This document shows, one piece after another, positions 1-45,068 of a DNA stretch of 45,068 nucleotides. Below the pieces are notes generated by a model. That model worked only from the letters and a program-made list of their open reading frames with translations, had not been told where the DNA came from and did no database searches. Source of the stretch: a virus. Location: positions 1 through 45,068 of the IMG/VR virus record IMGVR_UViG_3300033549_000082. One strand, 5' to 3'. The position numbers and the translations under genes were made by a program. Positions within the stretch are counted from its first letter, which is position 1, and each line of letters begins with the position of its first letter.

Positions 1-141
1 CTCTCTATAGCTCCACAGGAAGCTAAAGAGAAACAAAAAATAAATATTAAGGTAATATTTTTCATGATTCTTCAAGGTCTAATATTTGCTAATAACTGTA
101 ATCCATAAATAACCTCATTCATCTGCTCACAAACACTTAAC
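1..141. repeat. terminal direct repeat, copy 1 (assembly overlap of a circular or permuted genome)
   Basis: Exact 141-nt identity with 44928-45068 (offset 44927). The repeat falls inside a lipoprotein ORF and the stop region of ORF 72-365, so it is not a natural intergenic terminus. Confidence 0.9.
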
Positions 142-365
142 GCTCTTCGTTCAACTCTAATATAAATCACTTTTGAACCAGCTGGAATTTCCATCTTACT
201 TATCCCTACACCTAAAACAACGGTAATAGGAAAAGGAGGAACTTTATCTTCTTCTTCGATAGAAACCTTAATCTCCTCAATACCATCAACCGACTCAATT
301 ATTAGCGTCTGTGCATAAGCAGTACTAATTAAGAGACTAATCAAGATACTAATCAACACTCGCAT
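72..365 (-). CDS. small exported protein with cleavable signal peptide, function unknown (possible i-spanin-type partner of the next lipoprotein)
   Basis: 97 aa. The N-terminus MRVLISILISLLISTAYA|Q has a hydrophobic region plus an AxA cleavage site. AGGAG lies 7 nt upstream of the ATG. The start overlaps the upstream ORF by 17 nt. A lipoprotein gene follows 6 nt downstream across the junction. Confidence 0.55.
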   Translation of the reverse strand: MRVLISILISLLISTAYAQTLIIESVDGIEEIKVSIEEEDKVPPFPITVVLGVGISKMEIPAGSKVIYIRVERRALSVCEQMNEVIYGLQLLANIRP

Positions 366-1083
366 AAGCTACTCCTAAAGAAGAATGTATTTGAACCACT
401 GTCATATTAACTCCAACCTCAGCGTTTATTGAAACAGGTAAATAAATAGGAGGAAAGACTCCACTGTAATCTTTTTCAGTTAAAGTATTAAGCATACATC
501 CTAAACACGAGTTCGCATTTATGGTTTTTTCATAACTGTCTGCTCCAATCATAATCTTTACAGAGCTCGTATAATTAAGATTCGAGCATATAGCTATCCC
601 AACCATCCATTCTCCTCCGTTCTTCTCACTTCTTCCAATACAAGCATATAGAGTTTTTCTATCAGAAAACATAAATGTGAGAGAGGCACTACCTAAAAAT
701 TCGTCCTCTTCCGCATTAGCCGATTTTATAAGAAAAACCCTAAATTGATATATATGATTTAAAGGAACCTTATTTATAATAATCTCATTACTATAAGTAG
801 GTATCACAAACGTATTCAACACTTTATCTGTTTGGTCAACTACCTTAACCCTAAAACCAAAGATATTTTCGTAAGATTCCCATCTACAGCCAATCTTACC
901 ATCATAAGTTTGAAAGGCTATAACTTTGATTTTATCCGTTCCTATAATATCATCAAGAACAGTATTATCATCACTCCAATCAAAAGGATTAGGCTCACAG
1001 TTTGCTGGACATGCTTGAATAAAAAGCATAACAATTACCAATAAGGTAATAGGAATATTAGGTACTGGCGGTCTTTTTTTCAT
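349..1083 (-). CDS. lipoprotein with beta-rich (Ig/FN3-like) mature domain
   Basis: 244 aa. MKKRPPVPNIPITLLVIVMLFIQA|C shows a basic n-region, a hydrophobic region and a lipobox. AGGAG lies upstream. The ORF overlaps both neighbours. Confidence 0.6.
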   Translation of the reverse strand: MKKRPPVPNIPITLLVIVMLFIQACPANCEPNPFDWSDDNTVLDDIIGTDKIKVIAFQTYDGKIGCRWESYENIFGFRVKVVDQTDKVLNTFVIPTYSNEIIINKVPLNHIYQFRVFLIKSANAEEDEFLGSASLTFMFSDRKTLYACIGRSEKNGGEWMVGIAICSNLNYTSSVKIMIGADSYEKTINANSCLGCMLNTLTEKDYSGVFPPIYLPVSINAEVGVNMTVVQIHSSLGVAYASVD

Positions 1084-1693
1084 TTGTTTCTCCTTTTAAT
1101 GTCTCATATCCATTCCATTCATTAACTTTAATCTGAATAGTAGAGAACTTTGAATCTGTTTGTTGATTTATTTTGTTTATCATACTACTTAACGCATCCG
1201 AATTGTAGCTTTTGGCTACTATAATTCTAATATTTAATCTGTTCATCTTAGATTCTTTTAATATAGCCGTTTCAAATGCGTCAATAAATTCCTCATTAGC
1301 AAAGTCTGTATCAACAAGATTAAACGTAACATGAACTCTCAACTCAGACAAATAGTCAAATATCTCCAATAAAGGGGCTAATAATTCATCTTTACTCTTT
1401 ACATAAACAAATTGCTCTACATCATATACTACCCTTCCACATCTAAGACCATATTTTGATGGAATAATAACTATACAAGTCTTACAACACTTTAAACTTA
1501 TAACCTTCTCTTCTGGTTTAATAATATCCGACCATCTTTTTTTTCTAACAGCAACTGAAAGAATGTGCGGAAGATAACGTTTAATTACATCTGAATATAA
1601 AACTATAATGAGTATAGACGTAACAAAAAACAATATCCAAAACAACACATCTATTTTGCTTAATGCTTCTATTAGTTTAATTGCTGTAACCAT
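1058..1693 (-). CDS. single-pass membrane protein with a cytoplasmic alpha/beta domain of about 160 aa, function unknown
   Basis: 211 aa. A hydrophobic segment at aa 15-34 is followed by RKKRW (positive-inside rule). The ATG sits in a 22-nt overlap with the upstream ORF and has no SD, which suggests translational coupling. Confidence 0.5.
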   Translation of the reverse strand: MVTAIKLIEALSKIDVLFWILFFVTSILIIVLYSDVIKRYLPHILSVAVRKKRWSDIIKPEEKVISLKCCKTCIVIIPSKYGLRCGRVVYDVEQFVYVKSKDELLAPLLEIFDYLSELRVHVTFNLVDTDFANEEFIDAFETAILKESKMNRLNIRIIVAKSYNSDALSSMINKINQQTDSKFSTIQIKVNEWNGYETLKGETNEKKTAST

Positions 1694-2370
1694 TTTTTAA
1701 CAGTGTATCCTATAGATATAAACAGTATTATTGCGGCTAAAAAAACTATTATCATATATACCATATATTCAACAACTATCATATCCCTGACCGTTGAACG
1801 ATATATAATAATAAAATAACCAATAGTATTTTTATATCCAAGATAACTAATCTCAATTGGTTTATACGCTACAAATACCCTTAGATTATCATGCTGCATA
1901 ACATAAGAATATCTACGCTCATTAAATAATTCAGTTAAATCACTATTAAATGTCCCAATGCTGGATGTATCGGAACTCCAAATAATATAGCCATTATCCC
2001 CAACTACATTGCTACTTACCGTTTCTACGGAGGTAAATAAAATAAGAATTAAATTTATAGACTTATTCAAATATAATGAAAAATTACTTTCTCCATCATT
2101 GCAACACATATACAGTTGACCTTTATATTTATTATACGCTTCATCTTCAATACAACTCTTAACTTCTGATTGAGTCATAGAAAACGTAGTAAAGGCAGAC
2201 TCAATTTTATTTTTGGTTTCTTTAGCCCCTTGTCTCGCTATAGCGTTAAATCCATTGTGTATCATAGACTCAGTATAAAAAGTTCTCCAAAAGCCCAAAA
2301 GACCGAAAGAGATTAAAAATATTATAACAACTAATAAGGTTATATTCCTCTGTATCGTTTTGATTCCCAT
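1672..2370 (-). CDS. two-TM protein with an extracytoplasmic Cache/PAS-like sensor-type domain of about 170 aa and no output domain
   Basis: 232 aa. TM1 is at aa 11-28 and TM2 at aa 198-220, and the protein ends 12 aa after TM2. The intervening domain has a long N-terminal helix followed by beta strands with aromatic/Gly patterns (DNGYIIWSS, RVFVAYKPIEISYLGYKNTIGYFIIIY). The fold assignment is inference. Confidence 0.5.
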   Translation of the reverse strand: MGIKTIQRNITLLVVIIFLISFGLLGFWRTFYTESMIHNGFNAIARQGAKETKNKIESAFTTFSMTQSEVKSCIEDEAYNKYKGQLYMCCNDGESNFSLYLNKSINLILILFTSVETVSSNVVGDNGYIIWSSDTSSIGTFNSDLTELFNERRYSYVMQHDNLRVFVAYKPIEISYLGYKNTIGYFIIIYRSTVRDMIVVEYMVYMIIVFLAAIILFISIGYTVKKWLQQLN

Positions 2371-2741
2371 GACGCACCTATAATTATAAATAATCCAACA
2401 AAAAACTCAGCTATTCCATATTTATCATCCATACTGGTAAGCTGAGCTTCAGCATACCAGGAGACTGTTAGGTAAAAATAAAAAGATGCAAGTACGATGC
2501 CTAAAGATGCAACTAAGTGAACTTCACTATATATAATATAGTAGGCACATACCATAATAGCACAAAGAAATATAAACATCTCAGCATAAAGAATTATATA
2601 AGTCCCTTTAGTTTTAGAAGAAATAAACAACGATACAAACAAAAGAGCTACAATAAAGGATAACTCAAAAACATCCCCCATAAATCTGGAGCTAAGAATT
2701 GTATCGAGATAAGCACGCACCTTTAGATATATTTCTTTCAC
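2340..2741 (-). CDS. small polytopic (about 4 TM) membrane protein
   Basis: 133 aa with four hydrophobic segments. GTG start preceded by AAGGGG. Overlaps the terL 3' end by 50 nt. Confidence 0.45.
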   Translation of the reverse strand: MKEIYLKVRAYLDTILSSRFMGDVFELSFIVALLFVSLFISSKTKGTYIILYAEMFIFLCAIMVCAYYIIYSEVHLVASLGIVLASFYFYLTVSWYAEAQLTSMDDKYGIAEFFVGLFIIIGASWESKRYRGI

Positions 2742-4236
2742 TTGGACCCCTTAAATAAGGCATATAATTAAGCCTCTGCGGTGTGCGGTTAATTGTGTCA
2801 GCAAAACCGACATATTTATTATCTGTAGGAATAAACGTTATTCCCATTTCTTTGCAGATAACAGGTAAATACCCAAAAGCATCCATACAATCCCAAAGTT
2901 GCGAAACTGGAAATGTAAGAAGCTGTTGTTCTAATTTTTCACAGTTTACTTTATTATGATAAATTACTCCTGCCCTATAATACGGAGCAAGTTGAGCTAT
3001 TCGCTCTTCCTTTTTTCCAACAGCTTTTAACTCCCGAAGCTGAATCATTACTCCATGTGTTTGAAGATAATTTTCAAACGGCTGAGTTATAAATGTATGT
3101 AATGAAGTCGCCTCATAAAAAATAGACGTTGCGTTATAAAGAATAGCTTGTTTAGTCGCAAGGTCATAAATCTCATCTGGATAAAATTTTCCAGACATCA
3201 CATTTCTTACAAAAACCCTTGAATTTTCTGATTCTATTCCAATAGTTAAAATAGCCGTGTCCGATGAGTGAACTTTTACGGTCTTAGCTGGGTCAATAAC
3301 TACGAAGTTTATCAACTTATTTGCATCTGTTTTCTCTCCATTAACGTCAATCTTTGTTAAAGTATCTTCATAATATTTAAAATTCTTCGGACTAAACACA
3401 GGATCTTCTGTTGACATAGGAATATTTCTATACTCTCTATAAAACGAGTCAAGCATACCCATTTTCTTATGCGTCTCATATTCCAACTGAATACGCTCAT
3501 CAGACATATACTCTGGTGCTTTACTCTTTAAATCATCTCCAAAAGCCTCAAATCTAATAACATGCCAATCATCAAGCTTCATGAGATAGACAGGAATAGC
3601 ATCTTGATGTTTTAATGTATCAATATACACTATTTTAAACTCAGCATCAAAAAATCCAGTACATTTAAGCGGGTCAGAAAAGAACCATTCTCTTCTCTTT
3701 TCTCTCATATCTTCACTAATAAGCTCTTCTTTATCTTCAATATCATCACAAATTATAAGGTCTGGTCTATAACCTGAATAATTAAGACTCCTAACCTGTT
3801 GACCGATACCACGTGGAATTATGAATGAATAATTATTTGCAACCCATCCTTCAGTAGAAAATGTCTCCTCTCTTCCTTCAATCTTCTCGGGTTTCATACT
3901 ACCATAAAATTTTCTAATAAGTTCATTAGTCATTAAAGCATTCTTTAAATTTTCTGTTTGTCTTGTCGCTATTGTATTCGAGTATGAAATATATACCATA
4001 AACCTACTTGCCTTTAATAAAATCTTCCTTGCCATATAACGAAATAAAAGAGTTGTTGTTTTTCCAAATCCACGTGGGCATAAAATTAAAATCTTTTTAT
4101 GCTTACCATCAAGAGCCTCACATATTTGTTTATGTATATGAGTATCAACTGGAAACAAATCAGGAAAGTAAAACTTTCCAAACTTTAAAGAAGTTGATAA
4201 AGACTCAGCCAAAACACCTTTAACATCAGTCATCAA
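2692..4236 (-). CDS. terL: terminase large subunit
   Basis: 514 aa. Walker A is CPRGFGKTT and Walker B-like is DLIICDDIED. The C-terminal half carries RNaseH-like nuclease Asp motifs (VVIDPAKT, DCMDAFGY). The TTG at 4236 has GAGGAG 7 nt upstream; an alternative ATG lies at 4233. Confidence 0.92.
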   Translation of the reverse strand: MMTDVKGVLAESLSTSLKFGKFYFPDLFPVDTHIHKQICEALDGKHKKILILCPRGFGKTTTLLFRYMARKILLKASRFMVYISYSNTIATRQTENLKNALMTNELIRKFYGSMKPEKIEGREETFSTEGWVANNYSFIIPRGIGQQVRSLNYSGYRPDLIICDDIEDKEELISEDMREKRREWFFSDPLKCTGFFDAEFKIVYIDTLKHQDAIPVYLMKLDDWHVIRFEAFGDDLKSKAPEYMSDERIQLEYETHKKMGMLDSFYREYRNIPMSTEDPVFSPKNFKYYEDTLTKIDVNGEKTDANKLINFVVIDPAKTVKVHSSDTAILTIGIESENSRVFVRNVMSGKFYPDEIYDLATKQAILYNATSIFYEATSLHTFITQPFENYLQTHGVMIQLRELKAVGKKEERIAQLAPYYRAGVIYHNKVNCEKLEQQLLTFPVSQLWDCMDAFGYLPVICKEMGITFIPTDNKYVGFADTINRTPQRLNYMPYLRGPSERNISKGACLSRYNS

Positions 4237-4780
4237 TACTACTCTCCTCTCTAATCATTTCAATCCCAGCCGCTTTTGCTCTCGCCCTAATTGCCTCAAG
4301 GTCTTCAGGCGAGATTGCTACAGTTATTTTTCTCATATCCATCCTTTGTAATGGACTAAAACCACCTACAGCAAGAAGATGTCTTGCATTTTGAGACTTT
4401 ACAGAATGGGACACAGCATCACTTCTTAGTGTTTCTTCAAGATACTCTAACGCCCTCGGCATTATTTCATTTATTCTTGCATTGATGTCCATTACATCAC
4501 TATTCTTATTAGCCTCAAGTAATTGAATCTGTGCCATAATAGCAGGCATCCTCCTAACCTTAGAGATATATTCTGGCACCATTCCAACAATCTTTGCTAT
4601 CTCAGCATTATCTAATCCTAATACAATATATCTCGCAATGTTAGAGTGTTTACTCCACAATAACTCAGAATCTGCCGAATAAGCATCTCCATTACTAACC
4701 CTTCCATCCTTAGACCAACTTCCCAACTCCTTAACCACCCCCCTCCACCTCCTCCCTATACTTTTTACATTTTCCGCCAT
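4226..4780 (-). CDS. putative small terminase subunit (HTH protein immediately upstream of and overlapping terL)
   Basis: The ORF track gives 4226-4792 with a TTG start; an in-frame ATG at 4780 is preferred here. A helix-turn-helix-like segment is present (NAEIAKIVGMVPEYISKVRR). The stop overlaps the terL start. Confidence 0.55.
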   Translation of the reverse strand: MAENVKSIGRRWRGVVKELGSWSKDGRVSNGDAYSADSELLWSKHSNIARYIVLGLDNAEIAKIVGMVPEYISKVRRMPAIMAQIQLLEANKNSDVMDINARINEIMPRALEYLEETLRSDAVSHSVKSQNARHLLAVGGFSPLQRMDMRKITVAISPEDLEAIRARAKAAGIEMIREESSIDD

Positions 4781-4924
4781 CTTACTTCCCAATAATATAA
4801 TCTACAATGTATAAAACACTTCAACTTTGAGGGTTTAATTATCTATTCAGAAATAGTAAATAAACCACCTTGACATGGTTAGAGATGGTTATCCCCCTTT
4901 CTATTTTATACATGGCAACCGATC

Positions 4925-5269: not shown

Positions 5270-5304
5270 AAACGAAAAACCGTGCAGAGTTTTCACCCTG
5301 CACG
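5270..5304 (-). terminator. intrinsic terminator of ORF 5313-5915
   Basis: On the minus strand: CGTGCAG-ggtgaaaact-CTGCACG followed by GTTTTTCGTTTT, starting 8 nt after the stop codon. Confidence 0.7.
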
Positions 5305-5312
5305 ATTCGGGG

Positions 5313-5915
5313 TTATTTTTTCATTAAGCCGTACTTCTTCAATTTATCGTTATCAGCCAGTAACGACATGATGAACTTCTCTTCTCGTTGCTCTTTCGTA
5401 AGTGTTTTATTATCAACAATAAGTTCATAACCACCAGTTTTGAGAGTGTTGTAGATACTCTCAAGAGTTCTAAGCGTTCTCAGGTAGGTCTGAAATTTTA
5501 CAATAATACCACTGCCCACCAGTGAGCGTGTTACATCACCTGTTAGGACAAAACCTTCTTGAATATACACTTGAAACAATTCATTGCCTTGCCACTTGGT
5601 TTCAACAAATGGGGTAGAGGAAAAATTTGTTTTGCTCAAGTTTTCATTTTCCTCTTTCATGATTACAGCTTTAAGTTGTTCCCGTTTCTCACCTTGTAGG
5701 GAAATACGAAAACGACTGGTGCTGAGTTCAAACACATCATCAGCTTTTTTTGGGATAAAAAACACAACCACCCTACCGAGCTTTTTTTCGTTTTTAAACG
5801 TGATTGTATCGGCATAAGTCAAGCAATACCAGTCGTTTTCACCTTGATATAGCCCACGTGTTGCCTTAAAATCAATACTCTCCACCTTGTCATTTTTCAT
5901 TTTTTCGTTTTTCAT
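5313..5915 (-). CDS. orphan 200-aa soluble protein, the only ORF in the control region; candidate regulator
   Basis: ATG with AAGGGA upstream. It has its own terminator and an upstream palindrome cluster. GC is about 40-42%, against about 32% in structural genes. No motif recognised; the C-terminus is basic. Confidence 0.6.
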   Translation of the reverse strand: MKNEKMKNDKVESIDFKATRGLYQGENDWYCLTYADTITFKNEKKLGRVVVFFIPKKADDVFELSTSRFRISLQGEKREQLKAVIMKEENENLSKTNFSSTPFVETKWQGNELFQVYIQEGFVLTGDVTRSLVGSGIIVKFQTYLRTLRTLESIYNTLKTGGYELIVDNKTLTKEQREEKFIMSLLADNDKLKKYGLMKK

Positions 5916-6076
5916 TTGTTATTTTCCCTTTTTTTTCAAAATTTAAATCCGATACCTATACTAATGCAAAGTATATGCCAAAATACCACAAAAACACAAA
6001 TTTCTTATAAATCCGCAGTAGGCAAGGATTTACAGCACTTCACTTTTAGCATAGATGTTTTCACTAAACTTAAAAA

Positions 6077-6091
6077 TGACAAAATTTGTCA
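6077..6091. promoter_or_regulatory. operator-like perfect palindrome O1, TGACAAA-A-TTTGTCA
   Basis: Read directly. It lies in the leader of ORF 5313-5915. Confidence 0.5.
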
Positions 6092-6121
6092 TGCGAAAAT
6101 GCTCTTTTTAGTGGGTAGCCT

Positions 6122-6149
6122 ACAGTATCAAGGTTTAAGAGACTGACAA
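6122..6149 (-). promoter_or_regulatory. candidate leftward sigma70-type promoter for ORF 5313-5915
   Basis: Minus strand reads TTGTCA (6144-6149), a 16-nt spacer, then TACTGT (6122-6127). The -35 element lies inside palindrome O2. Confidence 0.4.
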
Positions 6150-6158
6150 AAATTGTCA
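6144..6158. promoter_or_regulatory. operator-like perfect palindrome O2, TGACAA-AAA-TTGTCA
   Basis: Read directly. It overlaps the -35 elements of both candidate divergent promoters. Confidence 0.5.
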
Positions 6159-6182
6159 TTTTTTGACAAAAATTGTCATAAT
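6153..6182 (+). promoter_or_regulatory. candidate rightward sigma70-type promoter
   Basis: TTGTCA (6153-6158), an 18-nt spacer, then CATAAT (6177-6182). The spacer and -10 are covered by palindrome O3. Confidence 0.35.
6164..6178. promoter_or_regulatory. operator-like perfect palindrome O3, TGACAA-AAA-TTGTCA
   Basis: Identical to O2, centre-to-centre spacing 20 bp. Confidence 0.5.
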
Positions 6183-6517
6183 TCATTTTTGAACGTTTTA
6201 ATGTATTGCGTGGCATGAAATATGCAACGGTGAGCTAATTCAGGTAATCTTAAATGTGTACGGAAAAACAAGTTTATTTCGCCATTGGTTAAATGGTTTC
6301 ATTCACTTAAAGGATTTTACCGATATGAAAAACATTAGCATAAAAGAAAAAAGTTAGGTGAGCCAAAATGGTTTTGGTCGCATAAAACGGTATAAATTTT
6401 GCATTTGCAGGTATTATGCCAACCGAAATGCGTTCAATAAATAAGACATGAATAATAAATAAAGGAAAGTTACTAAACGACATTTATTCGAAGAAAACAA
6501 AACGATAAAATTTTTAC

Positions 6518-6560
6518 CTCACATGGCTATAGCCGTTTTCTGCATCTCACATGGCTGTAG
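6518..6560 (+). repeat. two 15-nt direct repeats CTCACATGGCTRTAG (6518-6532, 6546-6560)
   Basis: 14 of 15 positions identical, period 28 nt. The first copy contains the palindrome GGCTATAGCC. Confidence 0.7.
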
Positions 6561-6590
6561 TAACAACCTCAACTGAGTTTATTTTTTAAC

Positions 6591-6619
6591 TTCAGATTGC
6601 GAAGAGGAGGTGATATTAT
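6591..6619 (+). promoter_or_regulatory. candidate extended -10 promoter
   Basis: TTCAGA, a 17-nt spacer whose last three bases TGA supply the TGn motif, then TATTAT at 6614-6619. It is paralogous in context (CAACTGAGTT ... GGAGGTGATATWAT) to the promoter at 11557-11585. Confidence 0.45.
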
Positions 6620-6874
6620 CTTCAAAAGGCGAAAAGAAAGAAAATAATGGGGGGCGAGGGGGGGCTTAATAGATGAAGGTAGAGAACTTAACCTAAAAAA
6701 GAAAATCCAAAGCTACTTCTTAATGAAAGAGAGGAAAAGAAATATCTTAAATAAAAAGCCTTTTTTGAACGTAGGTGGAAGTGAAGAGAAGGAATAAATT
6801 CTTTGATTTTTATCTGTTTTCATCAGGTAAAAGTGGAGAGAAGAAAAGAAAAGGAGGAATTTTCAAGAAGCTGT

Positions 6875-6893
6875 GTTTTTGTGGCTTTATGGT
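6875..6893 (+). repeat. iteron-like repeat GTTTTTGTGGCTTTATGGT
   Basis: Direct copy of 7203-7221 and inverted copy of 6988-7006 (17 of 19 positions). Confidence 0.7.
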
Positions 6894-6987
6894 TTTACCT
6901 TAAATTCTCGTAGAAATAGTCATTTTTAAAGATATTACCTTTAAAAAACAGTCCTTTTTCATTATAGAAGAGAGTTTTATCTATGCT

Positions 6988-7006
6988 ACCACAAAACCAC
7001 AAAAAC
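6988..7006 (-). repeat. iteron-like repeat, inverted copy (ACCACAAAACCACAAAAAC)
   Basis: Its reverse complement GTTTTTGTGGTTTTGTGGT matches 6875-6893 at 17 of 19 positions. A partial copy lies at 5985-6000. Confidence 0.7.
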
Positions 7007-7076
7007 GGGGGTCGGCACAGGCAGACATCTTTTTTCCTTTCTTAGCTTTTTTCTCTTACTGTAGCGTTTACAGGGA

Positions 7077-7119
7077 GATATATATAGATATATATATAGA
7101 TATATATATATCTATATAG
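7077..7119. repeat. (TA)n-rich tandem and palindromic tract
   Basis: GATATATATA GATATATATATA GATATATATATATCTATATAG. It includes the perfect 16-nt palindrome AGATATATATATATCT (7098-7113). Confidence 0.85.
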
Positions 7120-7172
7120 AAAAACTACTAATAAGTAATTGAATTTACTCAAAAAAAAATCCAAAAAAATAC

Positions 7173-7201
7173 TTGACTTTTTCCTGTTCGTGGGATATAA
7201 C
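7173..7201 (+). promoter_or_regulatory. early sigma70-type promoter with upstream A-tracts
   Basis: TTGACT, a 17-nt spacer, then TATAAC. A9 and A7 tracts at 7151-7169 are UP-element-like. The first early gene starts at 7244. Confidence 0.7.
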
Positions 7202-7202
7202 G

Positions 7203-7221
7203 GTTTTGTGGTTTTATGGTT
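7203..7221 (+). repeat. iteron-like repeat GTTTTGTGGTTTTATGGTT immediately after the -10 of the early promoter
   Basis: Direct copy of 6875-6893. It sits at about +2 to +20 relative to the -10 end, which is an operator position. Confidence 0.65.
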
Positions 7222-7243
7222 ATGAGGGATAGGAGGTTTTTAT

Positions 7244-39613: not shown

Positions 39614-40309
39614 TCATTTTCCTATAAAATATTTGAGATATTCAGAGGCTAAATTACCGCTTTCGCCTTTAGAGAACTCTCCAGATTTAAGTTTACCCTT
39701 AGCAAAACTACGCATCGGGTCGCTTCTAAAAGCATTAGTGAGTTCCTTCCGTAAGAGTTTTCCTTCTACCGTTCTTCCATCAATAGTAGAAAGTCTGTTA
39801 GTCAAACTTCTTAAAAACTCCTTAGTACTAAACGCTTTACCCACTGTAGAAAATGCTCCTGCACCTCCCAATAACAAAGGTAAAATTTCCATAAGTTTAT
39901 CTTCAGATGTTTTAGGCTCAGGTTCAGGATTAGGCATATCTACATTAACTCCATTTACACCTTGAGTATAAATAGACGAATTTAAATTTGAATTTATATC
40001 TCCTTTAAGTCCGCCAGTATCCATAGGATACTCTTCAGGCGAAAGTATTTCACTTATCTTAGGAGCATCGTCTTCGGCATAAGGAGTGCCTTGTTCAAGC
40101 TTCTTACGTTTAATAGCATTTATAGCATCTTGTACGCTGGAAGGTGTTACATAAACAGAACTATCAAAATCTTTAGCCGCAGTGAGTTCATCAATAGCTT
40201 CATCAAGTCTGTCTTCTGGCAAACCAGATAAAATCTCCAGTGTTCTTGCTACCATATTATTATGTTCTTTATTTTTCTTAACCAGATGTTTGATTCGTTG
40301 CTTTGGCAT
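39614..40309 (-). CDS. hypothetical head-module protein (232 aa)
   Basis: The ORF track gives 39614-40327 with a TTG start. The ATG at 40309 has AGGAGG 3 nt upstream. Overlaps the portal 3' end. Confidence 0.5.
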   Translation of the reverse strand: MPKQRIKHLVKKNKEHNNMVARTLEILSGLPEDRLDEAIDELTAAKDFDSSVYVTPSSVQDAINAIKRKKLEQGTPYAEDDAPKISEILSPEEYPMDTGGLKGDINSNLNSSIYTQGVNGVNVDMPNPEPEPKTSEDKLMEILPLLLGGAGAFSTVGKAFSTKEFLRSLTNRLSTIDGRTVEGKLLRKELTNAFRSDPMRSFAKGKLKSGEFSKGESGNLASEYLKYFIGK

Positions 40310-42143
40310 ATTCCTCCTGTGGAACAATGTTTCCTGCTTGTGCTTCTTTTCTTACATGCTCAGTTGAAGCCAACCTTATAAATGTATCAGCGTTCTTTAC
40401 TCCAGCCTGAGTAAAACACTCCGAAAATATTCTGGTAATATCAAATTTTTCATAAAGTTCTTTGTTAGATGAAATAATTTCAATCATCTTTAAATAAAGA
40501 TTACTTAACGTAGGTTTAGGAACTGAGCCATCCCTTGTAATTATATCAAAATCTATTTGAAGCATATCTGGAGTAACAATTTGCCTACTACCAGAAGCAA
40601 TTCCATGATTTTTCATTAGGGTCTCAGTCCATCTACCAGTCATTTTCAAATACCTTGACTTAGATAACATAAGACTATTTAATTTGGCAAATATTATACC
40701 TAACGGCTTCATCAATTGCTCACTATAAAGCATCCCCATTCTTTCGAGTCTTGTATAAAAAGAATGTTGAGTACCTTCAAATTCAGCACCTGTAAGTCGT
40801 TCAGGTCCACTTCTCCTAAGCATACCCATAGTTGCTTCATCTGCTCCACCTATTCTTTCCATCGCTTGAATAACAATAGGTATATCTCTCATATGATTTT
40901 GAGTTACGTCATTTATAGGAACTTGAAAAATAGCATCTCCAATACTCTGTCCAAACATAGCACGTTCAACTCTAACAACACCTCCGCCTTGTTCCTTAGC
41001 TAAAGTAAAATCTGCGGCATTTATACGATACGGGTCAATCACATGAATATTGTTTACTGCTTGTTGAACTGCTTTGATGTGTGAATTAAAAAGCCAATCA
41101 ACAATCCCCTGAAGTCCATATAAAGACTCCATCTTGGAAAGAGGAGAAATTGAGTACCCATCTGGGTCAGGAGTTCCAGAAACTATTGGTAAATCAGAAG
41201 AAATATTAACTAAAGGCATAGCCCTTATCAATACCGAATCTGCGGCAATAGAAAACCACCAATTTTCAGGTACTTCTGAGTCTCCAAAATCTAACTCTTT
41301 AGGAATAATATTAACAAATAAATTTACCACTTCAAAACTTTTAGCTATTGATTCATCAGTTGATAATACACGTTGAATCCCAGTTCTTGTACTTCTTTTA
41401 GACATATCTATACCAAATGTAGATGTACGATTCCGCAAATGCCTTAAATACTTAACATTAAACAAAGCTTTATCGTCTTGTACTACTAACTTATTATACG
41501 TCTCCGTACTAATCCAACCAAAAAAGCTACCTTTTTTTGCTTCATGTGAAGCTAAATTAGGGTCGGGAAATGCAAGATACGGGTCTATGTTTTGAAGCCC
41601 TATTCCCTCAAAGCCTGTAACATGGTCAGTCTCCCATATAGGAATACTATAACCTACACCATAAATAAGCCCATCTCTAAATAATGTATGTAATGGCAAT
41701 CTTAATCCAGCTTTCTCACATTGTAATTCGATAAGCTTTTCAAGTAGAATTGCTCCCAACTCATCTTCAGGAGCTACTCCCTCGTACATAAAAATTGGAG
41801 TAGATAAAAATACCGAAGAAAGATAAGAAAGTAATGCCTCCAAAATAGCATAACTATACGGAAACACAATAGGAACAGGCTTATTATTATCTTTATCCAA
41901 CTTCTCCTTTTCCGTTAAGTCAACAAATCCAGTCATAACATAGTCTATTTCATTCCAAGCATTATAACGACTTGAAATAACTCTTGATGAATTAGACATC
42001 AAAGTAAGAAGTTTATCTACTAATTTATTATGATAATCCGAATTAGGAGATAAATCATGTCCTCCTATATATTCGTAATCATACTTTATATCGTGTAGAT
42101 TTTCTAAATACCTTTCAGAACTACTGACTATTGTATTGCCCAT
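40278..42143 (-). CDS. portal protein
   Basis: 621 aa, the largest head-module ORF, immediately upstream of the scaffold/capsid block. GGTGAGG SD. Confidence 0.72.
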   Translation of the reverse strand: MGNTIVSSSERYLENLHDIKYDYEYIGGHDLSPNSDYHNKLVDKLLTLMSNSSRVISSRYNAWNEIDYVMTGFVDLTEKEKLDKDNNKPVPIVFPYSYAILEALLSYLSSVFLSTPIFMYEGVAPEDELGAILLEKLIELQCEKAGLRLPLHTLFRDGLIYGVGYSIPIWETDHVTGFEGIGLQNIDPYLAFPDPNLASHEAKKGSFFGWISTETYNKLVVQDDKALFNVKYLRHLRNRTSTFGIDMSKRSTRTGIQRVLSTDESIAKSFEVVNLFVNIIPKELDFGDSEVPENWWFSIAADSVLIRAMPLVNISSDLPIVSGTPDPDGYSISPLSKMESLYGLQGIVDWLFNSHIKAVQQAVNNIHVIDPYRINAADFTLAKEQGGGVVRVERAMFGQSIGDAIFQVPINDVTQNHMRDIPIVIQAMERIGGADEATMGMLRRSGPERLTGAEFEGTQHSFYTRLERMGMLYSEQLMKPLGIIFAKLNSLMLSKSRYLKMTGRWTETLMKNHGIASGSRQIVTPDMLQIDFDIITRDGSVPKPTLSNLYLKMIEIISSNKELYEKFDITRIFSECFTQAGVKNADTFIRLASTEHVRKEAQAGNIVPQEEYAKATNQTSG

Positions 42144-42157
42144 ATCCTCACCTGTGT

Positions 42158-42706
42158 TTAATTTTTGAATTTAGATTTTTTTAACCTGTTATAAGCAGAC
42201 TCCAATCTTAAGTCATATCTATTCTTTTTATAACCCTTTCCATTATAGAGTCTTGCAAAGGTAGAAAAGTGTTTATTTCTTAAAGCTTCATCTAATCCCC
42301 TAAACTTAAGTAAGTTAACAAAGGCTTTAAGATGGTTATTTTCATCTGACATGGCATCAACAAATTCTACAACTGTATTATAACCAGCTTCTTTATAATT
42401 GAAGCCCATTATCTGAAATTTTCCCCATGAGGTTGCCTTCAATGCAGCATTAAGGTCAAGAGCCATAGCATCATCAAGACGCTTCCATTCTTTCTCTCCA
42501 CCAATATAGTTACGTACCCATTTATTAGTGCTAAGATTAGGATGACTCCTATCGTAATGTCCCTTTGTAAATTTATGAAATTGAAAAGATTCAAACAGAA
42601 TCTTAGGTTTTCCTGACTTTAACATTCCATCTCCGAAAGCTTCTACCTCAGCTACCGCCATAAGCATCTCAACTTCACACCCAAGTTCTTTTGCAGCAGA
42701 TATCAT
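42158..42706 (-). CDS. endolysin, N-acetylmuramidase of the DUF3380/PF11860 type
   Basis: Motifs FESFQFHKFT, WGKFQIMGFNYKEAGY and FARLYNGKGYKKNRYDLRL. The ATG at 42706 starts 17 nt after the holin stop. The ORF track extends to a GTG at 42733. Confidence 0.82.
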   Translation of the reverse strand: MISAAKELGCEVEMLMAVAEVEAFGDGMLKSGKPKILFESFQFHKFTKGHYDRSHPNLSTNKWVRNYIGGEKEWKRLDDAMALDLNAALKATSWGKFQIMGFNYKEAGYNTVVEFVDAMSDENNHLKAFVNLLKFRGLDEALRNKHFSTFARLYNGKGYKKNRYDLRLESAYNRLKKSKFKN

Positions 42707-42722
42707 GGAAACAGACCTTCTT

Positions 42723-42965
42723 CTAATTTCCACTCCTGTAATCGGGAATATCTACAGGAGCAGAATTCTTTACTGCGTATGCGTTAATGTCTGATATAAT
42801 AACGTCTTTACTTAACGTATCTCTTAAACAAACACATGCAACAAATACAAATATGTCGGCTGCTTGGTCTAACGCCTGATTATTTAACGTTATTCCAGCA
42901 ATCTTCGTTCCTGCTCCAATTATAGAAGCCCAAAAAGTCTTAGTTTTCAGTAATTTTTTAAACAT
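42723..42965 (-). CDS. putative holin (2 TM, 80 aa)
   Basis: Hydrophobic segments FWASIIGAGTKIAGITL and ADIFVFVACVCL with a charged C-terminus. Immediately upstream of the endolysin. AAGGAG 7 nt upstream. Confidence 0.55.
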   Translation of the reverse strand: MFKKLLKTKTFWASIIGAGTKIAGITLNNQALDQAADIFVFVACVCLRDTLSKDVIISDINAYAVKNSAPVDIPDYRSGN

Positions 42966-42976
42966 TTTTCTTCTCC

Positions 42977-43600
42977 TTATTTAGTACAGTAAATTAACTG
43001 CACTACAAATTCTTCCATCTGTGTTGCAGACGGTAAAGTTAAAACTAATGTGATTTCATCTCCATAAGTAACATGACAATTTGTTTCATCAAGGTCAACG
43101 CCTGTTTCTTGCCAAGCACTATTTACAACGTTCACGTCAGATGTTAGTACAGAAAGACTATTTTTATAACAATTTAATACTAACCCAGTCTTATCTGCAG
43201 TTATAAAAAATGTCAAACCAAGAATAACCGAATCTCTTCCTATCCATTTTGCTCTTCTGTAAATATTACCATTTATTTTATCTTTCATTTCCAACGAAGA
43301 ATCATAAACAAAACCTAAATTACTCCCATTTATTTTCATTTTATTTAAGGTAAGAGGTAATGGGAAACCTCTTACCGTTACTATGTTTGAAGCAATACTT
43401 ATCACTTGGTGATAACTTGTAACATTAGAAGCATCATAGCAACATAAGACAACACCTTTAGCTAAAGTAGATATAGACCTAAGAATCTCAAAAGTATTTT
43501 GACTTAATCTGATTGAATTGTAGTCAATATCTCTGATTAAATAATTCCATAATCCCTCAGCAGATAAAAAAGTATTAGTCCTAAGTTGCCCTACGTGCAT
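42977..43600 (-). CDS. hypothetical protein (207 aa)
   Basis: ATG overlaps the upstream stop (TAATG). Confidence 0.55.
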   Translation of the reverse strand: MHVGQLRTNTFLSAEGLWNYLIRDIDYNSIRLSQNTFEILRSISTLAKGVVLCCYDASNVTSYHQVISIASNIVTVRGFPLPLTLNKMKINGSNLGFVYDSSLEMKDKINGNIYRRAKWIGRDSVILGLTFFITADKTGLVLNCYKNSLSVLTSDVNVVNSAWQETGVDLDETNCHVTYGDEITLVLTLPSATQMEEFVVQLIYCTK

Positions 43601-44226
43601 TAGATAATTACCACCTTTCCATCAAATCTTCCATCAGGAACTTCTGGAATCCTCAAACCTATATTTCCTGTAGAAGAAATCTTTACCTCATCAACGTCAA
43701 TCTTAACAAAATCAGAACCAGAAGCCATAAAAATCTGTGCCGCTGGATTTACACCTCTTCCATGCGTAGCCGCAATTATAGAGAAATAATAATAACCTCC
43801 AGCTGGAGCTCCCCAACCCGCAATATCAAAGGCTTCTGTATAACGCTCAGAAGGAAGTGAGTCTGATTCTTCCAAGAAGTTACAATGCCAAACACCAGCA
43901 GACGTTGAATTATCAACAAGAGTAAAAGCATACGCTCTGCCTGACTCAACCGCCCTCAACAACACAGGAGTTGTTGCATGATAAGTCTTAACTGCTAATG
44001 CACCCGCACCAGCAGCATGAATATTTACCTGCCAACCAATACTCAATGTGGTAGCATCTGGCAGAATTGTATCTTGTCCTGCCGTAGCCGTTAAGTACTG
44101 CCACCACGCTGAATGTTTGTCTAAGACTTCTGCGGCTGTTATGGTTGCAGCTCTTAAACCTTGATTAGCACGCCTCCCTACCTCCAAAGTTCGTAAAACC
44201 TTAAAATCTCCTCTTACCTCATACAT
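43600..44226 (-). CDS. hypothetical beta-rich protein (208 aa), paralogous C-terminal domain with ORF 44232-44618
   Basis: C-terminus YYFSIIAATHGRGVNPAAQIF...LRIPEVPDGRFDGKVVII, compared with YELTIAHNMDSGNVLFKVF...LLVPSNPDCRFSGNIILHGG in the neighbour. Confidence 0.55.
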   Translation of the reverse strand: MYEVRGDFKVLRTLEVGRRANQGLRAATITAAEVLDKHSAWWQYLTATAGQDTILPDATTLSIGWQVNIHAAGAGALAVKTYHATTPVLLRAVESGRAYAFTLVDNSTSAGVWHCNFLEESDSLPSERYTEAFDIAGWGAPAGGYYYFSIIAATHGRGVNPAAQIFMASGSDFVKIDVDEVKISSTGNIGLRIPEVPDGRFDGKVVII

Positions 44227-44231
44227 AAACT

Positions 44232-44618
44232 TTAACCTCCGTGTAAAATAATGTTACCACTAAACCTACAATCTGGATTAGACGGAACTAACAACTTTAA
44301 AGTGTTGGCTGAAACAAAGATAAAATCTTCAGGAACTACCTCTGAGTAGCCAATAAAAACTTTAAACAACACATTACCGCTATCCATGTTATGAGCAATC
44401 GTCAATTCATACCTTCCAGCATTTAGACTCCAATCATCAACATTAAACAAAGCCTCAGCTATCTTAAAAGTCCCCGTAGGAGTCTCCTTCAACCTAACCT
44501 TTAACGCATCCTTTTCCTTCTCATAAACAGCATTGAAAATATCCTTATCACTACGAATCCCGCTTAATCCTTCCGCAGTGTAAACCCTATTTAAGATTTG
44601 TTTTGCTGAAAGCCGCAT
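44232..44618 (-). CDS. hypothetical beta-rich protein (128 aa), paralogous domain with ORF 43600-44226
   Basis: See the shared motif listed for ORF 43600-44226. AAGGA upstream. Confidence 0.55.
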   Translation of the reverse strand: MRLSAKQILNRVYTAEGLSGIRSDKDIFNAVYEKEKDALKVRLKETPTGTFKIAEALFNVDDWSLNAGRYELTIAHNMDSGNVLFKVFIGYSEVVPEDFIFVSANTLKLLVPSNPDCRFSGNIILHGG

Positions 44619-44695: not shown

Positions 44696-44992
44696 TTAAA
44701 ATGGATTACTTGCTTCTACAGATACTCCTTCTCTCCCAACTCCAACCGCATACTTAAAAGCGTCTGCTCCAATCAACCACTTTAATATCTCTAATGTTGG
44801 GTCTATCGGCTCAACAGGGGGCTTAGTATAGCTAATATGTACATCTATCAATTTAACCTCCTTCGCATCAAAAGTAAAAGTAGGGAGTGGTATAGGCTCA
44901 CTAATACCCCTCTCAGCCTTTACTATTCTCTCTATAGCTCCACAGGAAGCTAAAGAGAAACAAAAAATAAATATTAAGGTAATATTTTTCAT
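44696..44992 (-). CDS. small Pro-rich lipoprotein (candidate o-spanin)
   Basis: MKNITLIFIFCFSLAS|C lipobox. The mature part has EPIPLPTF and KPPVEPIDP. The ORF spans the circular junction (its start corresponds to window position 65). Confidence 0.55.
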   Translation of the reverse strand: MKNITLIFIFCFSLASCGAIERIVKAERGISEPIPLPTFTFDAKEVKLIDVHISYTKPPVEPIDPTLEILKWLIGADAFKYAVGVGREGVSVEASNPF

Positions 44993-45068
44993 GATTCTTC
45001 AAGGTCTAATATTTGCTAATAACTGTAATCCATAAATAACCTCATTCATCTGCTCACAAACACTTAAC
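44928..45068. repeat. terminal direct repeat, copy 2
   Basis: Identical to 1-141. Confidence 0.9.

What the first reader, a model, noticed from the sequence alone, without database searches (positions are those of the whole stretch)
72..2741. terL-coupled six-gene envelope module containing a sensor-like two-TM protein with no output domain
Directly downstream of terL, five ORFs overlap terL and each other by 17-50 nt (2692-2741, 2340-2370, 1672-1693, 1058-1083, 349-365). A sixth follows 6 nt later across the circular junction (44696-44992). All six are envelope-targeted:
- a 4-TM protein;
- a TM / 170-aa extracytoplasmic domain / TM protein;
- a TM protein with a cytoplasmic domain;
- a lipobox lipoprotein with a beta-rich domain;
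- a signal-peptide protein;
- a second, Pro-rich lipoprotein.

This is not what normally lies between terminase and portal. The recognisable holin and muramidase are a separate cassette 1.7 kb further on (42158-42965).

The extracytoplasmic domain of ORF 1672-2370 (long helix, then beta strands with aromatic/Gly patterns) looks like the Cache/PAS sensors that bacteria fuse to kinases, chemoreceptors or cyclases. Here the protein stops 12 aa after TM2, and the next ORF supplies a separate TM plus cytoplasmic domain. That arrangement could be a split sensor/transducer. The last two genes could be a spanin pair.

The tight translational coupling to the packaging ATPase suggests late, stoichiometric expression. 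Hypotheses are a phage-encoded envelope-sensing, superinfection-exclusion or lysis-timing system of an undescribed type.
Basis: partly seen in the sequence, partly recalled or inferred. Interest (0 to 1): 0.72.

Follow-up and report, generated by a model that had tools for sequence, protein, structure and literature searches.

The report
Orphan envelope-protein block beside phage terminase
Six back-to-back genes for membrane, periplasmic and lipid-anchored proteins really do follow the terminase gene of this uncultured phage, but they have no relatives anywhere, sit in a variable stretch that holds lysis genes in a related phage, and show no evidence of being a sensor.

Summary
The window is a circular phage genome of 44,927 bp (bases 1-141 repeat at 44928-45068). 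Six contiguous minus-strand ORFs follow terL, and all carry N-terminal hydrophobic, signal or lipobox features. No other gene cluster in the genome does.

- B, C and D match only themselves among about 15 billion proteins. A, D, E and F match nothing in 50,697 phage genomes.
- Pfam, PHROGs, NCBIfam and PADLOC give no hits, and no Cache, PAS or HAMP match even at E <= 10.
- AlphaFold2 without an alignment gives unusable models (pLDDT 48 and 54). Foldseek finds nothing.
- Relatives (terL about 42% identical) lack the block. Their terL-portal interval varies from 1.2 to 5.7 kb. In the one complete annotated relative it holds a spanin-like pair and the endolysin.
- The long overlaps occur throughout the late operon, so they are not special to terL.

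D and F are the only lipobox proteins in the genome. The endolysin's relatives are all in two-membrane bacteria. E and F are therefore the likeliest spanin pair.

Best reading: a lineage-specific envelope and lysis accessory block. A–D most likely act in lysis timing or superinfection exclusion. Interest is low to moderate.

The parts
2692..4236 (-). terL, terminase large subunit. The source gene call starts at the ATG one codon in, giving 513 aa.
   Evidence: phrog_38 E 2e-65. 41.6% identity to Desulfofustis phage terL. Exact look-up.
2340..2741 (-). A: 133-aa small multi-pass inner-membrane protein with 3-4 TM segments and a basic C-terminus (WESKRYRGI). Holin/antiholin-type candidate. The start is uncertain (GTG at 2741 with AAGGGG upstream, or ATG at 2681).
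   Evidence: Hydropathy. Junction sequence. No family or phage hit. Not found in the source's gene calls with five starts tried.
1672..2370 (-). B: 232 aa, arranged as TM1 (10-28), about 170 aa of extracytoplasmic alpha/beta domain with 3 Cys, TM2 (203-221), and an 11-aa basic tail. Orphan protein.
   Evidence: both TM helices pLDDT 70-85; domain below 50. Only self-hits in 5.8e9 clusters and in 1.84e9 representatives with full HMMER. No Pfam, PDB or Foldseek match.
1058..1693 (-). C: 211 aa with an N-terminal TM (14-32), then a basic juxtamembrane helix (RKKR) and a likely cytoplasmic beta-alpha-beta domain. A CCxxC...C cluster lies at residues 68-84. Orphan protein.
   Evidence: pLDDT 54. 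Only a self-hit. Foldseek best E 0.13 against PDB and 0.012 against BFVD, with TM-score <= 0.36. No Shine-Dalgarno motif; a stop lies two codons upstream of the ATG.
349..1083 (-). D: 244-aa predicted lipoprotein (lipobox FIQA|C, Cys25, Pro at +2). The mature part is beta-rich and holds 6 further Cys. Orphan protein.
   Evidence: Lipobox scan. Composition. Strong AAGGAG Shine-Dalgarno motif. Only a self-hit. tblastn against phages found nothing.
72..365 (-). E: 97 aa. The N-terminal 21-residue hydrophobic segment is either a signal peptide (AYA|Q) or a type II membrane anchor, followed by 78 aa outside the cytoplasm. Candidate i-spanin or periplasmic partner.
   Evidence: Called identically by the source annotation, as a singleton cluster. 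No phage hit. The N-terminal LIS repeats are encoded by a 12-nt tandem repeat at 324-356.
44696..44992 (-). F: 98-aa predicted outer-membrane lipoprotein (lipobox LAS|C, Cys17, Gly at +2). The mature part is 82 aa with 9.8% Pro. Candidate o-spanin. It starts 6 nt after E's stop, across the circular junction.
   Evidence: Singleton cluster. No phage hit.
1..141 (.). Terminal overlap of the assembly, identical to 44928-45068. The genome is circular or circularly permuted, with a 44,927-bp unit.
42977..44618 (-). Three non-membrane ORFs (128, 208 and 207 aa) between F and the endolysin cassette. The first two share a C-terminal domain found in a virion-protein PHROG.
   Evidence: phrog_14293 E 5e-6 and 2.5e-7; phrog_10468 'virion structural protein' E 0.006.
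42723..42965 (-). 80-aa ORF just upstream of the endolysin. It is a holin by position only.
   Evidence: No Pfam, PHROG or NCBIfam hit. Best 19-residue hydropathy values are 0.93 and 1.52.
42158..42733 (-). Endolysin, a soluble N-acetylmuramidase. The source gene call starts at Met10 (42706).
   Evidence: PF11860 E 1.4e-54. phrog_1224 E 7.5e-64. Start.
40278..42143 (-). Portal protein, the downstream boundary of the variable interval.
   Evidence: PF23899 SU10_portal E 1.9e-11. 38% identity to the ORFs of L003 and L004.

Best explanation
The six genes are a lineage-specific run of late-operon envelope proteins. They sit in the variable terL-to-portal interval, where a related phage keeps its lysis genes.

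Most likely they are the membrane-acting side of host lysis plus accessory envelope proteins:
- E and F form the two-component spanin. E is anchored in, or exported across, the inner membrane. F is a proline-containing outer-membrane lipoprotein. The pair would break the outer membrane after the muramidase (42158-42733) has cut the wall.
- A is a small multi-pass holin/antiholin-type protein.
- B, C and D are fast-evolving accessory proteins that tune lysis timing or block superinfection from the envelope.

Shown: the genes, their topology signals, their orphan status, their absence from relatives, and their late-operon context.

Inferred: every functional role.
For: - All six carry TM, signal or lipobox signals. 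No other real gene cluster in the genome does.
- They lie inside one uninterrupted minus-strand operon, from terS through the endolysin, portal and capsid genes. No terminator lies within the block, and its codon composition is native.
- In the closest complete relative (Desulfofustis phage), the same interval holds a TM/helical 138-aa protein, an overlapping 195-aa lipoprotein (LSG|C-AQPPP) and the endolysin. In L004 a TM plus coiled-coil protein follows terL directly.
- D and F are the only lipobox ORFs in six frames. The 80 best-matching endolysin relatives fetched from bacterial genomes all lie in diderm lineages. About 85% of such phages have spanins (abstract of bioRxiv 10.1101/515445, listed), so the o-spanin is probably D or F.
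- The E-then-F order, the 6-nt spacing, the sizes (97 + 98 aa) and F's 9.8% Pro fit the 'separated' two-component architecture. That class tolerates beta content and i-spanins without coiled coils (PMC6139136).
- Own knowledge: in phage T7 the spanin genes 18.5/18.7 lie between the two terminase genes.
- Own knowledge: lysis and exclusion proteins are typically orphans. That fits the absence of homologues.
Against: - No homology or confident structure supports any assigned role.
- E's hydrophobic segment ends in a classic AXA cleavage motif. Its mature part does not look like a coiled coil, so E may be a soluble periplasmic protein rather than an i-spanin.
- E and F lie 1.7 kb from the endolysin, separated from it by three non-membrane ORFs.
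- Four of the six proteins (A-D) are more than any known minimal lysis system needs.
- The host is unknown. About 15% of phages of diderm hosts lack spanins.
Confidence: 0.45

Rival explanations
1. Superinfection-exclusion or receptor-masking module. The lipoproteins D and F and the membrane proteins A-C alter or occupy envelope components. Later-arriving phages then cannot adsorb or inject, and progeny are not lost on cell debris. T5 Llp, Cor, T4 Imm/Sp and P22 SieA work this way.
For: - Envelope targeting of all six proteins.
- Extreme sequence novelty and absence from relatives, as expected for arms-race cargo.
- Placement in a variable interval that also carries exported cargo in relatives.
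Against: - No match to any known exclusion family or PADLOC model.
- Known exclusion genes are usually single, and are early or lysogenic. These six are co-transcribed late genes in a phage with no integrase found.
- This reading would leave the phage without any spanin candidate.
Confidence: 0.2
2. B is a Cache/PDC-like extracytoplasmic sensor without an output domain. It signals through C (TM plus cytoplasmic domain) to set lysis timing or another response. This would be a new envelope-sensing system, functionally like T4 lysis inhibition (holin T / RI / RIII).
For: - B's topology (TM, about 170 aa, TM) and the order of predicted elements resemble a PDC domain: a long helix, then three strands, a helix and three strands before TM2.
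- E is the same size and kind as T4 RI, a 97-aa exported protein (own knowledge).
- T4 holin T also has a large periplasmic domain that is bound by RI (bioRxiv 10.1101/2025.11.12.688109).
Against: - No Cache, PAS, HAMP or holin-T family hit, even at E <= 10, on the isolated domain.
- No PDB sequence hit.
- The domain model has pLDDT below 50. Foldseek's best hit is E 0.67, with no sensor among the listed hits.
- C's domain matches nothing.
- B has no homologue, so there is no conserved pocket or covariation to examine.
- B plus C has three TM segments, which is not a simple split of a two-TM sensor.
Confidence: 0.1
3. C and D, rather than E and F, are the spanin pair. C would be an N-terminal-TM protein and D an overlapping lipoprotein, as in the 138-aa/195-aa pair of the Desulfofustis phage.
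For: - Same order and overlap style as the relative's pair: 26 nt here, 11 nt there.
- D is one of only two lipobox proteins.
Against: - The charge distribution places C's domain in the cytoplasm.
- C's domain is predicted as a beta-alpha-beta fold rather than helical.
- D is a large globular 220-aa protein with only 3.6% Pro.
Confidence: 0.12
4. Some of the ORFs are not genes, and are chance open frames in AT-rich DNA. This applies especially to A and E.
For: - E's 98-codon frame is within the range seen in shuffles.
- A was not found among the source's gene calls with five starts tried.
Against: - The five ORFs tile the minus strand of 72-2741 completely.
- Their GC1 > GC2 > GC3 pattern matches known genes.
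- Shine-Dalgarno motifs precede four of them.
- A's 133 codons exceed the 95th percentile of shuffles.
- The targeting signals sit exactly at the N-termini.
Confidence: 0.03

Closest known systems
Two-component spanins of the separated architecture (for example T4 PseT.3/PseT.2; lambda Rz/Rz1 is the functional prototype)
   Same: - E (N-terminal hydrophobic anchor) is followed 6 nt later by F.
- F is a lipobox lipoprotein with 9.8% Pro and no Asp at +2.
- Both are about 100 aa and are late genes in the same operon as the endolysin.
   Different: - No sequence relation to any spanin family in PHROGs or Pfam.
- E may be cleaved (AYA|Q) and is not obviously coiled-coil.
- The pair lies 1.7 kb from the endolysin.
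Phage T4 lysis-inhibition set (holin T, antiholin RI, RIII, spackle)
   Same: - A membrane protein with a large periplasmic domain (B, 232 aa, against T, 218 aa).
- A 97-aa exported protein (E, against RI).
- A partner with a cytoplasmic domain (C, against RIII).
- This is the known way a phage reads the envelope to time lysis (plus own knowledge of protein sizes).
   Different: - T has one TM and B has two.
- C is membrane-anchored, whereas RIII is soluble.
- No similarity is detectable by full HMMER against 1.84e9 proteins.
- The genes are clustered here, whereas they are scattered in T4.
Single-Cache / PDC sensor domains of histidine kinases and chemoreceptors (PhoQ, DcuS, CitA type)
   Same: - TM, then a roughly 170-aa extracytoplasmic alpha/beta domain, then TM.
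- A long N-terminal helix followed by strands.
   Different: - No profile match.
- No fold match.
- No output domain.
- No homologues from which to judge a ligand pocket.
Phage envelope exclusion proteins and morons (T5 Llp, Cor, T4 Imm/Sp, lambda Bor/Lom)
   Same: Small lipoproteins or membrane proteins encoded as variable cargo within or beside late operons.
   Different: - Those are single genes with known receptor targets.
- Here six genes are co-transcribed, and none matches those families.
terL-portal interval of Desulfofustis phage LS06-2018-MD01 (OP947158) and IMG/VR relatives
   Same: - Same genome layout: terS, terL, variable block, portal.
- In OP947158 the block holds a TM protein, a lipoprotein and the endolysin.
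- In two of the IMG/VR relatives it holds a TM/coiled-coil protein and large signal-peptide proteins.
   Different: - None of A-F has a counterpart there.
- The contents and length (1.2-5.7 kb) differ in every relative.

Membership tests
Cache/PDC (PAS-like) extracytoplasmic sensor domain | Significant profile match to a Cache, dCache, sCache, PhoQ-sensor or PAS family | tested here: not met
   Pfam hmmscan of full-length B at E <= 1 and of residues 29-201 at E <= 10. It returned only Tetraspanin, Endopep_inhib and Diacid_rec, at E 0.02-0.08 and far below their cut-offs. PDB phmmer at E <= 10 returned 0 hits.
Cache/PDC (PAS-like) extracytoplasmic sensor domain | PDC fold: a long N-terminal helix packed on a five-stranded antiparallel sheet | tested here: inconclusive
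   In the AF2 single-sequence model, residues 32-197 have pLDDT below 50. The order of elements is compatible. Foldseek against PDB gives a best E of 0.67, TM-score <= 0.2, and no sensor among the listed hits.
Cache/PDC (PAS-like) extracytoplasmic sensor domain | Covalent link to a transmitter module (HAMP, kinase, MCP or GGDEF) after TM2 | tested here: not met
   B ends 11 residues after TM2.
Cache/PDC (PAS-like) extracytoplasmic sensor domain | Conserved ligand-binding pocket | not testable with these tools
   B has no homologue in 1.84e9 representatives and no reliable model.
Two-component spanin (E = i-spanin, F = o-spanin) | o-spanin: lipoprotein signal with a lipobox Cys and no inner-membrane retention residue at +2 | tested here: met
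   F has ...FSLAS|C17-G, and K2 lies in the n-region. It is one of only two lipobox ORFs in six frames.
Two-component spanin (E = i-spanin, F = o-spanin) | i-spanin: N-terminal TM anchor (N-in, C-out) that is retained | tested here: inconclusive
   E residues 3-23 are hydrophobic enough for a TM (KD 1.96, Wimley-White -8.8). They contain AYA|Q, a possible signal-peptidase site. No SignalP or experiment was available.
Two-component spanin (E = i-spanin, F = o-spanin) | Adjacent genes in the order i then o (embedded, overlapped or separated) in the late/lysis region | tested here: met
   6-nt gap, same strand and same operon as the endolysin, but 1.7 kb from it.
Two-component spanin (E = i-spanin, F = o-spanin) | Homology to a known spanin family, or a helical/coiled-coil periplasmic domain in the i-spanin | tested here: not met
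   No PHROG, Pfam or phage tblastn hit. Coiled-coil content was not computed. The review notes that more than 120 i-spanins lack one.
Two-component spanin (E = i-spanin, F = o-spanin) | Outer-membrane disruption activity | not testable with these tools
   Needs complementation of lambda Rz/Rz1 or a lysis assay.
T4-type holin T / antiholin RI | Sequence membership of the holin-T or RI families | tested here: not met
   No Pfam or PHROG hit for B or E. Full HMMER with B finds only itself.
T4-type holin T / antiholin RI | Single N-terminal TM with a C-terminal periplasmic domain | tested here: not met
   B has a second, strongly hydrophobic TM at 203-221 (KD 2.82, pLDDT 70-85).
Holin (A) | Small protein with at least one TM and a charged C-terminus, encoded next to the endolysin, with a family match | tested here: inconclusive
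   A is 133 aa with 3-4 TM segments and a basic tail. It lies 4.8 kb of circular map from the endolysin and has no family hit.

The most novel reading that the evidence does not exclude
A-E, or at least B with C and E, form a phage-encoded envelope-sensing device that sets lysis timing or exclusion in a podovirus. B's extracytoplasmic domain reads a periplasmic cue and passes it to C's cytoplasmic domain. The device would be built from proteins unrelated to the T4 T/RI/RIII system or to any bacterial sensor family.
Probability: 0.1. Interest if true: 0.7.

Novelty: new member of a known kind. Interest (0 to 1): 0.3.

Why it matters
If E and F are spanins and A-D regulate lysis or exclusion, this adds a sequence-novel example to a class already known to be very diverse. 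That would be useful for annotating uncultured phages, but it does not change concepts.

It would matter more if B and C proved to be a sensor/transducer pair. Apart from T4-type lysis inhibition and the still unresolved N4 case, few ways are known for a lytic phage to read the state of the envelope.

The block is a singleton in a phage with no known host, so nothing here makes that question directly testable yet.

Tried and rejected
- **Homologues of B, C and D.** The k-mer/HMMER search of 5.8e9 clusters returned only self-hits. Full HMMER with B against 1.84e9 representatives returned only itself. No alignment, profile or covariation analysis was therefore possible.
- **tblastn of A, D, E and F against 50,697 phage genomes.** Nothing below E 0.1.
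- **Family libraries for all six proteins.** Pfam, PHROGs, NCBIfam and PADLOC gave nothing, including the isolated soluble domains at E <= 10.
- **AF2 single-sequence models of B and C.** pLDDT 47.7 and 54.1. Foldseek against PDB and BFVD found nothing at E <= 0.001 and TM-score <= 0.4. I treat these results as uninformative, not as evidence against any fold.
- **Closer relatives through terL.** IMG/VR and JGI metagenomes gave only relatives of 38-43% full-length identity, plus two short fragments at 47% and 50%. None carries the block.
- **Locating the source contig or sample by exact protein look-up.** Not on record.
- **Ideas from reading the sequence that the profile searches did not confirm.**
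  - A as a GtrA-like four-TM flippase.
  - C as a truncated GT2 glycosyltransferase ('IVIIPSKYG', 'VDTD').
  - B as a Wzz-like co-polymerase.
  - D as containing an FN3-like domain.
  - The first three I rejected; the FN3-like reading of D is kept only as an unconfirmed note.
- **Unimolecular spanin.** Rejected, because neither D nor F has a C-terminal TM.
- **Frameshifted B-C fusion.** Rejected, because a stop lies two codons upstream of C's ATG in C's frame.
- **Rfam and tRNA scans of the window.** Nothing found.

Full report
**What the window is.** Bases 1-141 are identical to 44928-45068. The window is therefore a circular or circularly permuted genome of 44,927 bp.

It is a phage with two arms.
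- The plus-strand arm (about 7.2-22.8 kb) is a replication module. It encodes a DNA ligase, an exonuclease, a Sak4-like annealing protein, a ParB-methyltransferase fusion, a DNA polymerase and a primase.
- The minus-strand arm is a late operon. It runs from terS (4226-4792) and terL (2692-4236; phrog_38, E 2e-65) across the junction. It continues through the muramidase (PF11860, E 1.4e-54), an SU10-type portal (PF23899) and the major head protein, down to 22802.

No integrase or tRNA was seen. GC content is 31-43%.

The nearest known phage is Desulfofustis phage LS06-2018-MD01, with terL 41.6% identical. IMG/VR and JGI metagenomes add full-length relatives of 38-43% identity, plus two short terL fragments at 47% and 50%. 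Most late proteins of this phage also lack PHROG hits, so the whole lineage is poorly sampled.

**Checking the observation.** F follows E by 6 nt across the junction. The five ORFs in 72-2741 tile the minus strand completely.

Their stop-free lengths are 248, 244, 212, 133 and 98 codons. Shuffles of the region give a mean maximum of 83 codons and a 95th percentile of 114. Only E is within chance range by length. E is nevertheless called identically by the source annotation. Its start sits behind an AGGAG motif.

GC1 > GC2 > GC3 holds for all six, and GC3 of 0.24-0.28 equals that of the rest of the late operon. The block is therefore native to this genome, not a recent import.

The stated overlaps are correct for the longest ORFs. 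Shine-Dalgarno-like motifs support the starts of A, B, D and E. C has no such motif and cannot start further upstream. A's start is the least certain.

Overlaps of 11-116 nt between longest ORFs occur all along the late arm. No terminator lies inside the block. The 'coupling to terL' is therefore just membership of a compact late operon.

**Topology.** Hydropathy, charge and lipobox rules give the following.

| ORF | Length | Predicted features |
|---|---|---|
| A | 133 aa | 3-4 TM segments, basic tail |
| B | 232 aa | TM 10-28, about 170 aa outside the cytoplasm, TM 203-221, 11-aa basic tail |
| C | 211 aa | TM 14-32, then RKKR; domain probably cytoplasmic, with a CCxxC...C cluster |
| D | 244 aa | Lipobox FIQA\|C; mature part with six further Cys |
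| E | 97 aa | 21-residue hydrophobic N-terminus containing AYA\|Q |
| F | 98 aa | Lipobox LAS\|C; mature part 9.8% Pro |

A genome-wide scan of every start in six frames finds lipoboxes only in D and F. Strong N-terminal TM segments in real genes occur essentially only in this block. The statement that all six are envelope-targeted is therefore confirmed as far as rule-based methods allow. SignalP, LipoP and TMHMM were not available.

**What the proteins are related to.** They are related to nothing.
- B, C and D match only themselves in a collection of about 15 billion proteins. For B this also holds with full HMMER against 1.84 billion representatives.
- A, D, E and F have no tblastn match in 50,697 phage genomes.
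- E and F are singleton clusters.
- Pfam, PHROGs, NCBIfam and PADLOC give no significant hit, even for the isolated soluble domains at E <= 10.
- With no homologues, AlphaFold2 had to run on single sequences.
  - For B, the mean pLDDT is 47.7 and the whole extracytoplasmic domain is below 50.
  - For C, the mean pLDDT is 54.1, with a beta-alpha-beta pattern at 74-193.
- Foldseek returned only weak, generic matches. The best for B is E 0.67. For C the best matches are flavodoxin-like or PP-loop folds at E 0.13 and TM-score about 0.3. The viral library gave nothing usable.

These results are uninformative rather than negative.

**The Cache/PAS claim.** The only thing in its favour is the order of predicted elements in B. 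TM1 runs into a long helix. Short helices follow, then three strands, a helix, and three strands before TM2. This resembles a PDC domain, but it comes from a low-confidence model.

Against it:
- No Cache, PAS, HAMP or PhoQ-sensor profile appears at any threshold.
- There is no PDB hit.
- No sensor appears among the listed structural matches.
- B plus C has three TM segments, so the pair is not a cut-apart two-TM sensor.

I rate the sensor/transducer reading at about 0.1.

**Context in relatives.** None of A-F occurs in any related locus or in any of the 97 loci fetched. The terL-to-portal interval differs in every relative.
- L003: 1.2 kb.
- L004: 4.3 kb.
- Desulfofustis phage: 5.7 kb.
- This window: about 5.5 kb.

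In the Desulfofustis phage the interval holds three relevant genes.
- A 138-aa protein with an N-terminal TM and a charged helical remainder.
- An overlapping 195-aa lipoprotein (…FLSG|C-AQPPP…).
- An M15 peptidase endolysin.

I read the first two as a spanin-like pair. In L004 a TM plus coiled-coil protein follows terL directly, and a 530-aa signal-peptide protein comes next. L002 carries a 462-aa signal-peptide protein.

Envelope-directed and lysis genes after terL therefore recur in several members of this clade. From my own knowledge, T7 also places its spanins (18.5/18.7) between terS and terL. The block is variable cargo in a known hot spot, not an anomaly of terminase biology. That outcome is met, with the caveat that the known relatives are distant.

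**Most likely function.** The 80 best-matching relatives of the endolysin fetched from bacterial genomes (39-53% identical) all lie in diderm lineages. These include Gammaproteobacteria, Bacteroidota, Desulfobacterota and Acidobacteriota. The endolysin is a single-domain soluble muramidase. The host is therefore very probably Gram-negative.

About 85% of such phages encode spanins (abstract of 10.1101/515445, listed). An o-spanin must be a lipoprotein, and only D and F qualify.

The E-F pair fits the separated two-component architecture in several ways. These are the order, the 6-nt spacing, the sizes of about 100 aa each, and proline-containing F with Gly at +2. That class often has beta content, and many i-spanins lack coiled coils (PMC6139136). 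C-D is a weaker alternative. C's domain is probably cytoplasmic and alpha/beta, and D is large, globular and poor in proline.

The 80-aa 'holin' upstream of the endolysin is assigned by position only and is weakly hydrophobic. A therefore remains a candidate holin or antiholin.

For B-D I can only infer. They are late-expressed, fast-evolving envelope proteins beside lysis genes. Such proteins are most simply lysis-timing regulators, in the manner of T4 T/RI/RIII, or superinfection-exclusion factors.

Overall confidence in the 'lysis plus accessory envelope block, with E/F as spanins' reading is about 0.45. Exclusion stands at 0.2, C/D as the spanin pair at 0.12, a sensor system at 0.1 and non-genes at 0.03.

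**Novelty and verdict.** The sequences are new, but the kind of thing is known: orphan membrane, periplasmic and lipoprotein genes in the variable lysis-bearing part of a phage late operon. Nothing tested points to a categorically new system. Nothing can be tested further by comparison, because the block is a singleton in a phage with no known host.

I score interest at 0.3. The most novel reading that remains open is a phage envelope sensor unrelated to T4's. It has a probability of about 0.1 and would deserve about 0.7 if true.

Noticed in passing
window 1-141 and 44928-45068: A perfect 141-bp terminal duplication. It marks a circular assembly, and the junction cuts through the E/F gene pair. 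It lies in coding sequence, so it is unlikely to be a true T7-style terminal repeat.
   Followed up: yes
window 324-356: A 12-nt tandem repeat (ACTAATCAAGAG, 2.8 copies) encodes the LIS-ILIS-LLIS hydrophobic core of E's N-terminus. It also overlaps the end of D. The signal or anchor segment may have grown by repeat expansion.
   Followed up: partly
window 5916-7240: A 1.3-kb stretch between the divergent arms with no convincing ORF. The GC skew changes sign near 6000. An (AT)20 / 12-mer repeat lies at 7078-7118, with further short repeats at 5890-5934 and 7029-7069. It is a candidate divergent promoter or origin region.
   Followed up: no
window 5277-5313: A strong hairpin with T-tracts on both strands (14 pairs on the minus strand, 6 on the plus strand). 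It lies between the 200-aa ORF at 5313-5915 and the start of the late operon. It looks like a bidirectional terminator that insulates terS/terL from upstream transcription.
   Followed up: no
window 17195-18565: A single 456-aa ORF fuses a ParB-like nuclease/partition domain (residues 9-180) to a DNA methyltransferase domain (231-437).
   Followed up: no
window 43600-44618: Two adjacent ORFs (128 and 208 aa) each match the C-terminal roughly 75 positions of phrog_14293. The second also matches phrog_10468, 'virion structural protein'. Pairwise BLAST between the two is not significant. They may be small virion or fibre-like proteins sharing a C-terminal module.
   Followed up: partly
window 42706-42965: The source annotation starts the endolysin at Met10 (42706). 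The 80-aa upstream ORF is then separated from it by 16 nt rather than overlapping it. That ORF has no holin family hit and only weak hydrophobic segments, so the phage's true holin is unidentified.
   Followed up: partly
window 349-1083 (D, residues about 50-140): By eye, the sequence has a fibronectin-III-like strand pattern (…CRWES…GFRVKV…IYQFRVFLI…). A second domain with four Cys follows. Pfam did not confirm either.
   Followed up: partly
window 1058-1693 (C, residues 68-84): A CCKTC-x11-C cysteine cluster at the start of the predicted cytoplasmic domain. It is a possible metal site. It lies in the least confident part of the model.
   Followed up: no
L004 4116-5708; L002 13266-14654: Distant relatives encode large proteins (530 and 462 aa) with N-terminal signal peptides just downstream of terL. 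The L004 protein begins like a right-handed beta-helix polysaccharide lyase. Exported cargo after terL therefore recurs in at least these two relatives.
   Followed up: partly
window 22802-27463: A 1553-aa late protein with no Pfam hit and only a marginal PHROG hit. Most other late proteins (486, 189, 521, 464 aa and others) are likewise unmatched. The whole virion module is poorly represented in current libraries.
   Followed up: partly
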